This document shows, one piece after another, positions 39,791-41,530 of a stretch of 64,000 nucleotides of DNA. A program made the translations under genes and the position numbers. The stretch is from the sequence record OR757436.1. The stretch is one strand, 5' to 3'. Source of the DNA: Escherichia phage vB-EcoP-XT73. Under the pieces are notes generated by a model. That model saw only the letters and a list, made by a program, of their open reading frames with translations. It did not search any database and was not told where the DNA came from. Within the stretch, counting starts at the first letter, position 1; the number at the start of each line of letters is the position of its first letter.

Positions 39791-39818
39791 TCTATCTGAT
39801 GCTCTAAATCCTTCCTAT

Positions 39819-39840
39819 AAGCCTCCTAGTGAGGCTTTTC
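39819..39840 (+). terminator. putative terminator
   Basis: AAGCCTC-CTAGT-GAGGCTT then TTTCTCATTT. Confidence 0.35.
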
Positions 39841-40127
39841 TCATTTCTAAGGTGATTGTATTCCTTACCCTCCTTTAGCTCATTGTGATGCGTCTGAGAG
39901 CGTCAAATAGTGCTTTACAAGCCTGTTTTAGTATGTTATTCGCGTGCGCGTTCCTTTACCTACTCCTCTACGAAAAAGTTTAAAATAATTTGCTTTGCCC
40001 TATTGCATTACTCACTGGTTGGCGTATACTTCAATTCATCGGGTACGATGAAAAACATACAAGGCAAGAAATTGCCCCGCTCTTTAAAAATCAGGCTAGA
40101 AAGTGAAAAAATACTTGAAAAAAGTAT

Positions 40128-40155
40128 TTGACAACTGGAAAGCCTAACCTATAAT
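40128..40155 (+). promoter_or_regulatory. near-consensus sigma-70-type promoter
   Basis: TTGACA, 16-bp spacer, TATAAT, with A/T-rich upstream flank. Confidence 0.4.
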
Positions 40156-40580
40156 GAGCATAAGTCAGCGATGACGTGAAACATCCCCGCTCTTTAAAAA
40201 CTTATCATCTTGCCCTTTCGCATAGATTCAAGCGAGATAAGGGAAAAGAATAAAAGAAGATGATAAAAAAGAGGTTGCAAACGTGGTTAAGGTAGTTCAT
40301 ACTAACCACAAGTTAACAAAACAACGTTAACTAGTTCCCAAGTCAACGTATCGCGGGAAAGGTGGCACATAGTGCAGCGAGTAGTTCGGGAGTAGGCGCC
40401 CCGTTAATGAATAAGTAAGCCTTTAATGATGCAGTGATTAGCAGACACTATAAAAGGCTAAAAACGCTCTTTAACAATATGGATCATAAGTTTAAGCCTT
40501 ATCGCTTAATCTTCAATCAAATAAAGCTGGTTGATATATCCTCCCAATAGCGGGAACGACGAAAAAGATTAAAAAAGCGG

Positions 40581-40609
40581 TTGACAGCAAAAACATCATG
40601 GTCCATACT
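40581..40609 (+). promoter_or_regulatory. sigma-70-like promoter
   Basis: TTGACA, 17-bp spacer, CATACT. Confidence 0.35.
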
Positions 40610-41530
40610 GAGCACTCACTAAGCAAAACACCGCTTCAGTGAAAAGCGAAACAACGGCTAACAGTTGCATGACGTGAGAAAGCACGTCGATAGATTTACC
40701 GCTCTTTAATAATTTAAACATTCCCCTATATCGGTTAAATATGTTTGATGATAATAACCATCGGAAAACATACCAGATAAAACGGTGTAAAACTCCCTAA
40801 AATATCAGGGTAAACAGTTTTACATTCCCTTACTGGAAACGCCACCACTGATAAGCGGATTCATTGAGTACACGCAACGGCTTAAGCTAATCGCCCACGG
40901 TTAAGGGTAGCGGCGGCCATCGCTAACACGGTGCTACAGTGAAAGAAACTAATCAGGGTAGGCAATCCCGACGAATTAACGCTCAATTGAGAGCGGCGGG
41001 GAGTGGTTAAAAAGTGGCAAATTGCTATTTAACAATAAGGTTTAATGCGAACGTTTACGATGTGAACGGCTTGAGATTCATCACAAGATGAAAGTACATA
41101 GCCGGTTTATGTAGTAAACCTGCCGAAAGATATAAAACGCCGGAATACTAGGCGGTTAGTGACTTTTTCGCAATAGTATCCCGTAGTGGGCGATGACTAG
41201 CGAAAGAGAGCTGATATAAAAGGATAAGCGGGAGCGAAAGCAAAGTAAACGATATTGCCGACGGTTACAGTAATGTAATTAAATAGAGTCGGACGCATAG
41301 CCTTATTGTGATGATTGATCATCGCTATCAGGTCGGCTTCGTTTATAGCGACTAATTAAAGATACCAGATGAAACATCACGGATAAGGGGGCGGCAAGGT
41401 TAACTCCTGACAAGACCGCCCCGCTTATCAATAATTACTTAACAATGAGTGATTATCGATAAGTCAATGGCGACTTAAAAAGCTCATAGAGAGCGGGGCA
41501 TAGTGCCCTTACAATTGAAAGGTGAATATC

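What the first reader, a model, noticed from the sequence alone, without database searches (positions are those of the whole stretch)
39800..41530. 1.7-kb gene-free region with near-consensus promoters and a repeated CCCCGCTCTTTAA motif
This is the largest non-coding stretch in the window. It contains several sigma-70-like promoters (for example TTGACA-16-TATAAT at 40128-40155) and at least six copies of a CGCTCTTTAA-type motif in both orientations. It precedes the first early-looking gene (41531) and may be the early promoter region and/or the physical genome terminus (terminal repeat or packaging site) of a circularly permuted or joined assembly.
Basis: partly seen in the sequence, partly recalled or inferred. 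Interest (0 to 1): 0.5.

Follow-up and report, generated by a model that had tools for sequence, protein, structure and literature searches.

The report
Phage early promoters, boxA sites, large RNA
The gene-free stretch is not the end of the phage genome: it holds four strong host-type promoters, each followed by the signal E. coli uses to keep ribosomal-RNA transcription from stopping, and these drive a previously undescribed, highly folded RNA of about 800 bases that sits ahead of the first conserved early gene.

Summary
The window is a phiEco32-like coliphage (Kuravirus). Region 39800-41530 corresponds to the phiEco32 gap between genes 125 and 124.

- It is the largest ORF-free stretch in the window.
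- TTGACA-16-TATAAT is at 40128-40155.
- CGCTCTTTAA occurs four times exactly.

What does not hold up:
- All four copies are on the + strand. The "reverse copies" carry at least 2 mismatches, and the two at 40991-40995 and 41491-41494 are arms of RNA hairpins.
- The physical terminus is elsewhere. The 193-bp terminal repeat of phiEco32 maps to about 36924-37116, 2.7 kb upstream.

What the region is:
- The motif matches the published gamma-proteobacterial boxA consensus GYTCTTTAANA and the E. coli rrn leader boxA.
- In 30 related phages there are 113 copies in this gap, all in the sense orientation and none antisense. They alternate with near-consensus sigma-70 promoters.
- Downstream of the last boxA lie about 800 nt (40713-41509) that are as conserved as the neighbouring gene. 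They show no codon periodicity and fold into two closed domains plus hairpins.
- 71-81 base pairs show compensatory changes, against 6-13 in slid controls.
- Rfam has no match, and I found no description in the literature I could search.

Best reading: rRNA-operon-style promoter and boxA modules give fast, Rho-resistant transcription of a large structured leader or non-coding RNA, and then of the early genes. The function of the RNA is unknown.

The parts
39819..39847 (+). Intrinsic terminator that closes the upstream early cassette (homologues of phiEco32 genes 128-125)
   Evidence: Stem AAGCCTC/GAGGCTT followed by a T-run. The stem is conserved and the loop varies in 7 relatives. It is annotated as a terminator in the 4E8, SU10 and SU7 records.
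40003..40030 (+). Promoter P1, TTGCAT-16-TATACT (8/12), with an A/T-rich UP-like tract upstream (39974-39998)
   Evidence: The hexamers and the A-tract are invariant while the spacer varies among 7 relatives. This is the weakest of the four by consensus.
40063..40076 (+). Small hairpin GGCAA-GAAA-UUGCC directly 5' of boxA1 (boxB-like position)
   Evidence: Predicted in both the MFE and the centroid structure. Invariant in the relatives that share this module.
40079..40089 (+). boxA1, GCTCTTTAAAA
   Evidence: Exact match to GYTCTTTAANA (consensus taken from PMC5725501).
40128..40155 (+). Promoter P2, TTGACA-16-TATAAT (12/12)
   Evidence: Conserved as an 11-12/12 site in relatives.
40189..40199 (+). 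boxA2, GCTCTTTAAAA, about 27 nt from the inferred P2 start
40275..40303 (+). Promoter P3, TTGCAA-17-CATACT (9/12), preceded by an A-rich tract
   Evidence: Read from the sequence and conserved in the same lineage. Other lineages have TTGACA-16-TAGAAT about 50 nt upstream of their third boxA.
40466..40476 (+). boxA3, GCTCTTTAACA (GCTCTTTAACAAT, identical to the rrn boxA core)
   Evidence: It sits at a fixed distance (-1057 to -1073, -1098 in LAMP) from the gene 124 ATG in all 22 relatives.
40581..40609 (+). Promoter P4, TTGACA-17-CATACT (10/12; CATAAT in all 21 relatives examined), with the UP-like tract GAAAAAGATTAAAAAAG at 40560-40578
   Evidence: TTGAC and the -10 hexamer are conserved and the spacer varies in 22 phages.
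40670..40689 (+). boxB-like hairpin (stem xxxGUG/CACxxx, conserved loop AGAAAG) 11 nt 5' of boxA4
   Evidence: 7 pairs, 3 of them with compensatory changes, 98.9% paired in 27 sequences. The variants GACGUG/CACGUC, AGUGUG/CACACU and GAGGUG/CACCUC are visible.
40701..40711 (+). boxA4, GCTCTTTAATA (GCTCTTTAACAATTTA in about half of the 22 relatives, a 16/16 match to the E. coli rrnH leader)
   Evidence: It lies -825 to -836 (-865 in LAMP) from the ATG in 22 phages and -870 to -936 in distant relatives. It is predicted mostly unpaired in the consensus structure.
40713..41011 (+). Structured RNA, domain I. The closing helix 40713-40725/40999-41011 starts 2 nt after boxA4.
   Evidence: RNAalifold with pair counts. 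Several internal helices have 3-5 covarying pairs each. An equivalent closing helix covaries independently in group B relatives.
41012..41030 (+). Inter-domain hairpin (GUGGCAAAUUGCUAUUU), sequence-invariant
   Evidence: Changes are on one side only, so there is no covariation evidence.
41032..41309 (+). Structured RNA, domain II. Closing helices are 41032-41041/41300-41309 and 41045-41049/41294-41298. It contains a variable insertion point at about 41125-41180.
   Evidence: Helix 41119-41124/41227-41232 has all 6 pairs covarying, and 41067-41079/41090-41104 has 7 of 11.
41310..41509 (+). String of 3' hairpins of the RNA (41310-23, 41331-53, 41368-78, 41388-41422, 41429-58, 41460-77, 41482-94, 41495-41509)
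   Evidence: Helices 41388-41394/41416-41422 and 41429-41438/41449-41458 have 5 covarying pairs each. No T-run follows, so no terminator is predicted before gene 124.
41531..42430 (+). First conserved early gene (phiEco32 gene 124 homologue, 299 aa, function unknown), always directly downstream of the RNA. Its Shine-Dalgarno sequence is at about 41518-41524.
   Evidence: It matches PHROG 13018 (unknown function) and no Pfam family. The AF2 model has pLDDT 70 and no PDB fold match.
42453..42490 (+). Strong intrinsic terminator after gene 124
   Evidence: 12-bp stem followed by a T-run. Annotated in the 4E8 and SU7 records.
36924..37116 (.). Outside the finding: the place that corresponds to the 193-bp terminal repeat of phiEco32, i.e. 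the likely physical genome end
   Evidence: phiEco32 positions 1-193 equal 77362-77554. The left end 1-417 maps to window 37116-36702, and the right end maps from 36945 onward.

Best explanation
The region is the main early transcription control region of a phiEco32-like phage, and it is built like a ribosomal RNA operon leader.

Shown:
- Four tandem sigma-70 promoters (P1-P4) all point towards gene 124. They have near-consensus hexamers and A-rich UP-like tracts.
- Each promoter is followed, 27-156 nt after its inferred start, by a perfect boxA (GCTCTTTAANA). In modules 1 and 4 a small hairpin directly precedes the boxA, which is the rrn order boxB-boxA.
- Two nucleotides after the last boxA begins an untranslated RNA of about 800 nt (40713-41509). 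It has two closed multi-helix domains and a row of 3' hairpins, its structure is conserved by compensatory mutation, and no terminator is predicted before gene 124.

Inferred:
- The nascent boxA RNA recruits host NusB-NusE(S10), NusA, NusG and SuhB, as at rrn operons.
- This makes RNA polymerase fast and resistant to Rho over a long transcript that no ribosome protects.
- By tethering the 5' end to the polymerase, it may also help the long-range closing helices to form.
- The function of the RNA itself is not known. Options are a cis-acting leader controlling gene 124 and the early genes, or a stand-alone host-takeover RNA or RNP.
For: 1. Identity. 97 phage records (Kuravirus, Suseptimavirus, Nieuwekanaalvirus) hold the region at 75-96% identity. 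It is the phiEco32 gap between genes 125 and 124.

2. boxA.
- All four copies fit the published consensus GYTCTTTAANA (PMC5725501; 7 hits in the window against 0.51 expected).
- The E. coli rrnH leader carries GCTCTTTAACAATTTA preceded by a hairpin.
- In 30 phages the gaps hold 113 consensus copies on the sense strand and 0 on the antisense strand. The 117 kb of downstream coding flank hold 0 sense and 4 antisense copies.
- The core is invariant while the 5' flank varies, and the extended consensus GCTCTTTAAnAAT equals the rrn sequence.

3. Promoters.
- Promoter and boxA alternate in all 22 isolates and in the distant relatives.
- 86 of 113 boxA copies have a promoter of at least 9/12 within 220 nt upstream.
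- Hexamers are conserved and spacers vary.

4. Non-coding but constrained.
- Column identity is 0.83-0.92 over most of 40683-41531 (0.45-0.71 in the variable patch 41076-41189), against 0.71-0.91 in gene 124.
- Variable columns by phase are 130/137/127, against 84/58/246 in gene 124, and there are many 1-nt indels.

5. RNA structure.
- RNAalifold on 14 sequences gives 235 pairs, 71 of them with compensatory double changes. 98.6% of cells are paired, against 34-49% when partners are slid. Slid controls give 8-11 double-change pairs, and 0 of 500 shuffles reach the observed value.
- A structure predicted from the window sequence alone shares 226 of 235 pairs. It scores 71 double-change pairs against 6-13 for slid partners.
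- With 27 sequences there are 239 pairs, 81 covarying.
- The + strand is favoured: alifold energy -239.9 against -169.8, and single-sequence z-score -8.5 against -5.4.

6. Depth.
- Uncultivated relatives whose gene 124 protein is only 47-69% identical have the same layout, with the last boxA at -870 to -936.
- They fold independently into a two-domain structure (group B: 215 pairs, 101 covarying).
- The window-derived structure is 59-76% formed in them even in a plain sequence alignment.
Against: - There are no transcript data. Promoter use, transcription start sites and the 3' fate of the RNA are all inferred. P1 and P3 match the consensus only 8-9/12, and the generic promoter scan is not enriched.
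- Nus-factor binding and Rho resistance were not and cannot be tested here.
- No rrn-type boxC (GU-rich) follows the boxA copies (sequence).
- The RNA is G-rich rather than C-rich over most of its length and is heavily structured. It may therefore be a poor Rho substrate anyway, which weakens the 'needed against Rho' argument.
- One boxA after the last promoter would suffice mechanistically, so the reason for four is unexplained.
- The covariation statistics are counts with controls, not a phylogeny-aware test such as R-scape, and the sequences are related.
Confidence: 0.75

Rival explanations
1. The region is, or contains, the physical genome end (terminal repeat or packaging site), and the repeated motif is a packaging or terminase recognition repeat.
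For: It is the largest gene-free stretch. The assembly is indeed joined across the terminus.
Against: The 193-bp direct terminal repeat of the phiEco32 record maps to window ~36924-37116, 2.7 kb upstream. In phiEco32 four genes (125-128) lie between the right end and this gap. The motif is strictly strand-specific, follows promoters and equals boxA.
Confidence: 0.03
2. The motif acts at the DNA level as a binding site (operator or roadblock) for a phage or host protein that regulates the early promoters, and not as an RNA signal.
For: The copies sit close downstream of promoters, where operators can lie. phiEco32-type phages shut off early transcription, and gp79 is known for this (PMC8948821).
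Against: - The sense/antisense ratio is 113:0.
- The distance from the -10 hexamer varies widely, from 24 to 178 nt.
- The motif has no dyad symmetry.
- It is identical over 13-16 nt to the rrn boxA, which is known to act in RNA.
- The last copy is placed exactly at the 5' edge of a structured RNA.
Confidence: 0.07
3. It is a lambda-like N/nut system. boxA plus the adjacent GAAA-loop hairpin form nut-like sites read by a phage-encoded N-like protein, rather than by the host-only rrn-type complex.
For: Hairpins with conserved GAAA-type loops lie next to boxA1 and boxA4. The conserved loop AGAAAG suggests specific recognition. Phage early regions are where N-type systems act.
Against: The order is hairpin then boxA, as in rrn, and not boxA then boxB as in lambda. 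Modules 2 and 3 lack a clear hairpin. No arginine-rich-motif protein was found among + strand ORFs of the early region. The early proteins have no Pfam hits.
Confidence: 0.1
4. The conserved 0.8 kb acts as DNA (a replication origin or cruciform), or encodes small proteins, and not as an RNA.
For: Some GenBank records annotate 30-60-aa 'hypothetical proteins' here. Phage origins are often in gene-free regions.
Against: - There is no codon periodicity, and single-base indels are frequent.
- The ORFs are short, not more than 42 aa, and lie mostly on the antisense strand.
- Many conserved G-U pairs and the strong strand asymmetry of the fold favour a + strand RNA.
- 71-81 compensatory pairs include long-range helices.
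Confidence: 0.04

Closest known systems
E. coli rrn operon leader (tandem P1/P2 promoters with UP elements, boxB-boxA-boxC, rrn antitermination complex of NusA/B/E/G, SuhB and S4)
   Same: - Tandem strong sigma-70 promoters with A-rich upstream tracts.
- A hairpin followed by boxA with the same 13-16-nt sequence.
- boxA placed just 5' of a long, untranslated, highly structured RNA whose long-range closing helix begins next to it.
- The concept of boxB/boxA/boxC and the leader-trailer helix is as described in PMC10250234 (abstract).
   Different: - There are four promoter-boxA modules in series, instead of two promoters sharing one boxA.
- No GU-rich boxC is present.
- The RNA has no similarity to rRNA or to any Rfam family.
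- It is followed by protein-coding early genes.
- It is encoded by a virulent phage.
Lambda-type nut sites (boxA + boxB, N protein)
   Same: A phage early-transcript element that contains boxA next to a small hairpin with a GAAA-type loop. It presumably uses the host Nus factors.
   Different: - Lambda boxA is the weaker CGCTCTTA (from my own knowledge), whereas here the full rrn consensus is present.
- The order of hairpin and boxA is reversed.
- No N-like protein was found.
- The phage is virulent and not lambdoid.
boxA upstream of CRISPR arrays and of suhB (Stringer et al. 2020, PMC7665894; Baniulyte et al. 2017, PMC5725501)
   Same: These are boxA elements outside rRNA that protect a long untranslated transcript from Rho, or that regulate a downstream gene. 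The same consensus was used for detection.
   Different: Those are single copies in bacterial chromosomes. Here there is an array of 3-5 copies, each with its own promoter, in a phage and ahead of a large structured RNA.
Large structured non-coding RNAs of bacteria and phages (GOLLD, ROOL, OLE, HEARO and similar Rfam families)
   Same: The size class (several hundred nt), the multi-domain covariation-supported structure, phage association and unknown function.
   Different: There is no sequence or structure match to any of the 4227 Rfam models, even at E up to 10. The RNA sits in a fixed position as the leader of an early operon, preceded by boxA. Its distribution is narrow: Gordonclarkvirinae and uncultivated relatives, with none in 185,579 bacterial or archaeal genomes by a conserved 21-mer.

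Membership tests
rrn-type boxA antiterminator | Sequence matches the gamma-proteobacterial boxA consensus GYTCTTTAANA | tested here: met
   Four exact matches at 40079, 40189, 40466 and 40701. There are 113 of 113 sense-strand copies in 30 phages. The consensus is from PMC5725501, and the rrnH leader gives the same hit.
rrn-type boxA antiterminator | Lies in the transcribed strand downstream of a promoter, so that it is present in the nascent RNA | tested here: inconclusive
   Predicted promoters lie 24-178 nt upstream for 86 of 113 copies, and all copies are in the sense orientation. No transcript mapping is available.
rrn-type boxA antiterminator | Precedes a long untranslated (Rho-sensitive) transcript | tested here: met
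   820-1450 nt without coding signal follow the copies.
rrn-type boxA antiterminator | boxB hairpin 5' of boxA | tested here: met
   Present for modules 1 and 4, and supported by covariation for module 4. It is weak or absent for modules 2 and 3.
rrn-type boxA antiterminator | GU-rich boxC 3' of boxA | tested here: not met
   No GU-rich element follows any copy. After boxA4 comes TTTAAACATTCCCC, the 5' strand of the domain I helix.
rrn-type boxA antiterminator | Binds NusB-NusE and confers Rho resistance | not testable with these tools
   This needs gel shift or ChIP, and boxA mutants with and without bicyclomycin.
Lambda-type nut site | boxA followed 3' by a boxB hairpin that is bound by an N protein with an arginine-rich motif | tested here: not met
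   The hairpin is 5' of boxA. No ARM-containing early ORF was found.
Any described RNA family (Rfam 15) | Covariance-model match | tested here: not met
   No credible match at E up to 10 in 38500-43000: the four listed hits are snoRNA and SAM-VI chance hits far below their gathering scores. No match at gathering score in five relatives.
Structured RNA (generic) | Base pairs kept by compensatory changes above controls, with strand asymmetry | tested here: met
Phage genome terminus / direct terminal repeat | Corresponds to the ends of a related genome whose ends are defined | tested here: not met
   The phiEco32 terminal repeat maps to 36924-37116 and not to 39800-41530.

The most novel reading that the evidence does not exclude
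The ~0.8-0.9-kb RNA is a new class of large phage non-coding RNA that is made the way cells make rRNA. Tandem strong promoters and Nus-factor (boxA) antitermination complexes would both protect it from Rho and chaperone its folding. It would act in trans during host takeover, as an RNP scaffold, a decoy or a catalytic RNA. The multiple boxA copies might additionally draw Nus factors away from host rrn operons. On this reading it is more than a cis-acting mRNA leader.
Probability: 0.3. Interest if true: 0.9.

Novelty: new variant of a known kind. Interest (0 to 1): 0.72.

Why it matters
phiEco32 is a model for phage control of host RNA polymerase. Even so, its longest non-coding region has only been treated as a place for promoters.

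- A virulent phage that copies the rrn leader logic four times over would be a new use of the Nus-factor antitermination machinery. So far that machinery is known from rRNA, lambdoid nut sites, CRISPR leaders and a few mRNAs.
- It would offer a concrete answer to how long early transcripts of this phage group escape termination. That question was left open for the related phage 7-11 (PMC8948821), although 7-11 itself lacks the motif in the 6 kb at its right end.
- Large RNAs whose structure is supported by this much covariation are rare, and they have repeatedly turned out to have unexpected functions.
- This one is in easily grown coliphages, next to defined promoters, so it is directly testable by deletion, probing and pull-down.
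- It also matters for annotation. Several GenBank records fill this region with spurious small ORFs.

Tried and rejected
- Rfam at a permissive threshold on the region, and at gathering threshold on five relatives, gave nothing. tRNA/tmRNA search found only tRNA-Arg at 47781.
- The phage sigma factor gp36 promoter motif TAATGTATA is not enriched in the window. The gap has only one 1-mismatch hit (40405), so these are not middle or late promoters.
- The search for an N-like arginine-rich protein was negative.
- Gene 124 protein has no Pfam family and belongs to a PHROG of unknown function. Its AF2 model has pLDDT 70 and no PDB fold match, so it gives no hint that it partners the RNA.
- The right end of Salmonella phage 7-11 has no boxA consensus, so the feature does not extend to that family.
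- The internal boxA-like GCTATTTAACAA (41024) was rejected as a boxA because it degenerates in the distant relatives. It is part of a hairpin and helix.
- The long-range helix pairing GATTTACC (just 5' of boxA4) with the gene 124 Shine-Dalgarno region is predicted but invariant, so it is unsupported. The 14-bp complementarity of boxA1 to 41487-41500 is not kept in all lineages (notebook).
- Literature: no paper in the searchable library combines phiEco32 with boxA, and none reports Kuravirus transcriptomics. The SU7 genome paper does not discuss the gap.
- The two key phiEco32 papers (Savalia 2008, Pavlova 2012) could not be read. I cannot exclude that some of these promoters were mapped there. 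From memory of the abstract, sigma-70 promoters were located upstream of early genes.
- No covariance model was built, because the domains exceed the practical size limit of the tool.
- One literature search was badly designed and uninformative.
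Full report
**What the window is.** The 2-kb query around the finding matches 97 phage records at 75-96% identity, all of them phiEco32-like podophages of E. coli and Shigella (Gordonclarkvirinae: Kuravirus, Suseptimavirus, Nieuwekanaalvirus). In phiEco32 the homologous stretch is the unannotated 1.9 kb between genes 125 and 124, on the strand that carries the early and middle genes.

**Checking the observation.**
- The stretch 39791-41508 is the largest part of the window without an ORF of at least 75 aa. It is 1718 bp, and the next largest is 714 bp.
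- TTGACA-16-TATAAT is at 40128-40155, and TTGACA-17-CATACT is at 40581-40609.
- The number of promoter-like sites in a generic scan is not above chance (8 against 7.6). That part of the observation therefore rests on quality and conservation, not on count.
- CGCTCTTTAA occurs exactly four times (40078, 40188, 40465, 40700), always on the + strand.
- The reverse 'copies' need at least 2 mismatches. Two of them turn out to be arms of RNA hairpins.

**The terminus idea.**
- The phiEco32 record has an exact 193-bp direct repeat at its two ends.
- Its left end (1-417) maps to window 37116-36702. Its right end maps from 36945 onward.
- The terminal repeat therefore corresponds to ~36924-37116, present once. 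This lies in another gene-poor stretch between the divergent late (-) and early (+) clusters, 2.7 kb upstream of the finding.
- The assembly is thus joined across the terminus, but the finding is not the terminus.

**The motif is boxA.**
- The published gamma-proteobacterial consensus is GYTCTTTAANA (Baniulyte et al. 2017, PMC5725501).
- All four copies fit it. The window has 7 hits against 0.51 expected, four of them in this 1.7 kb.
- The E. coli rrnH leader gives the same hit, GCTCTTTAACAATTTA, preceded by a hairpin.
- In about half of the 22 relatives, including ECBP2 and 4E8, the copy nearest gene 124 is identical to that 16-mer.
- Across 30 phages the gap regions hold 113 consensus copies on the sense strand and none on the antisense strand. 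The 117 kb of downstream coding flanks hold 0 sense and 4 antisense copies.
- The 5' flank of the motif varies, while the core and the following AAT do not.

**Promoter and boxA modules.**
- In every phage examined, promoters and boxA copies alternate.
- In the window the promoters are P1 TTGCAT-16-TATACT (40003-40030), P2 (40128-40155), P3 TTGCAA-17-CATACT (40275-40303) and P4 (40581-40609).
- Each has an A-rich tract upstream. The hexamers are conserved while the spacers vary.
- boxA follows at about 42, 27, 156 and 85 nt from the inferred starts.
- Modules 1 and 4 have a small hairpin just 5' of boxA. The module 4 hairpin keeps its loop AGAAAG and changes its stem by compensatory substitutions.
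- This is the rrn order, boxB then boxA. No boxC is present.
- An intrinsic terminator at 39819-39847 ends the upstream cassette, and another at 42453-42490 follows gene 124.

**A large structured RNA.**
- From boxA4 to the gene 124 start codon the sequence is as conserved as the gene: column identity is 0.83-0.92 over most of its length (lower only in the variable patch 41076-41189), against 0.71-0.91.
- Its variable columns show no codon phase, 130/137/127 against 84/58/246 in the gene. Single-base indels are common.
- RNAalifold on 14 diverse sequences predicts 235 pairs, 71 of them with compensatory double changes.
- In the pair count, 98.6% of cells are paired. Sliding the partners gives 34-49% paired and 8-11 double-change pairs, and none of 500 shuffles reaches the observed values.
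- The consensus method uses covariation to choose the structure, so I repeated the count with a structure predicted from the window sequence alone. It shares 226 of the 235 pairs and again gives 71 double-change pairs, against 6-13.
- With 27 sequences there are 239 pairs, 81 of them covarying.
- The sense strand folds much better than the antisense strand, with alifold energy -239.9 against -169.8 and z-score -8.5 against -5.4.
- The architecture is as follows:

| Element | Window coordinates |
|---|---|
| Domain I (closing helix starts 2 nt after boxA4) | 40713-41011 |
| Invariant hairpin | 41012-41030 |
| Domain II | 41032-41309 |
| Eight 3' hairpins | 41310-41509 |
| Shine-Dalgarno of gene 124 | about 41518-41524 |

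- No terminator is predicted before the gene.
- Rfam 15 has no match.

**Depth of conservation.**
- A conserved 21-mer of the RNA finds only phages of this group in metagenomes, and nothing in 185,579 bacterial and archaeal genomes.
- Homologues of the gene 124 protein at 47-69% identity lie on uncultivated phage contigs with no GenBank isolate.
- All of these contigs have a gene-free stretch of about 3 kb upstream with the same layout, and the last boxA is at -870 to -936.
- Their nucleotide similarity to the window RNA is weak. They nevertheless fold independently into a two-domain structure with many compensatory pairs.
- Even in a plain sequence alignment, 59-76% of the window-derived pairs form in them, against 35-42% for slid partners.

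**Mechanism.** The anatomy and the structure are shown. The rest is inferred.
- This would give Rho-resistant, fast transcription of a long RNA that no ribosome covers.
- Tethering boxA to the polymerase may help the long-range helices that begin right after it.
- Weak points: there are no transcript data, no boxC and no Nus binding data. The RNA is not C-rich. The reason for four modules is unexplained.
- The function of the RNA is unknown. Its neighbour, gene 124, gave no clue.

**Novelty.**
- I found no description of boxA or of a structured RNA in this phage group.
- The two central phiEco32 papers could not be read, so some of the promoters may already have been mapped there.
- I rate the finding a new variant of a known kind: rrn-type antitermination modules used in series by a virulent phage. 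It carries a new large RNA family whose role could make it more than that.

Noticed in passing
window 36924-37116 (and the ORF-free stretch 37014-37727): This is the place that corresponds to the 193-bp terminal repeat of phiEco32. It is present once, between the divergent late and early gene clusters. The window therefore comes from an assembly joined across the physical ends.
   Followed up: yes
window 40073-40086 and 41487-41500: There is a 14-bp complementarity between boxA1 with its CCCC flank and the element TAGAGAGCGGGGCA just before the gene 124 ribosome-binding site. It could be a leader-trailer-type pairing or an anti-boxA. It is kept in some lineages and weakened in others, with no clean covariation.
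   Followed up: partly
window 40694-40704 and 41517-41527: A predicted long-range helix pairs the sequence just 5' of boxA4 with the Shine-Dalgarno region of gene 124. It is invariant in sequence, so it is neither supported nor refuted by covariation. If real, it would link boxA occupancy to translation of gene 124.
   Followed up: partly
window 41012-41041: The stretch GGCAAATTGCTATTTAACAATAAGG between the two RNA domains is invariant and looks like a degenerate boxA. In the distant relatives it reads GCTAATTAACAA or GCTTATTTAATAA, so it is a structural element and not a boxA.
   Followed up: yes
window 40766-40783 and 41358-41375: The motif AUACCAGAU(A/G)AAAC is repeated in conserved, mostly unpaired positions of the RNA. 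It could be a protein-binding or tertiary-contact site.
   Followed up: no
window 33492 (+), 43480 (-), 47576 (-): Three further matches to the boxA consensus lie outside the gap. Those at 43480 and 47576 are antisense to the + strand early genes; 33492 is on the + strand in the late-gene region. They are probably chance hits.
   Followed up: no
window 39467-39790: A 107-aa ORF with a signal-peptide-like N-terminus and no Pfam or PHROG match sits directly upstream of the gap. phiEco32 has no counterpart at this place, and the whole 37.7-39.8-kb cassette is mosaic among relatives.
   Followed up: partly
window 39022-39387: This 121-aa early protein (phiEco32 gene 125 type) is labelled 'terminase' in many records and in PHROG 13168. 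That is implausible for its size and position and is probably a propagated annotation error.
   Followed up: no
L037, L039, L041, L042 (Logan metagenome contigs): These uncultivated relatives have genomes or contigs of up to 96 kb. A single ~3-kb gene-free gap lies directly between the terminase-side cluster and the gene 124-side cluster, and it carries the same promoter-boxA-RNA layout. No isolate in GenBank represents them.
   Followed up: partly
L020 (vB_EcoP-101114UKE3) 1967-3637, and the records EK5, pEC-N1203-2Af.1 and CHD5UKE1: Several GenBank records annotate five to ten 'hypothetical proteins' of about 30-50 aa inside this non-coding region (the sizes are from L020, the only one opened). 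They overlap the structured RNA and the promoters and are very likely spurious.
   Followed up: partly
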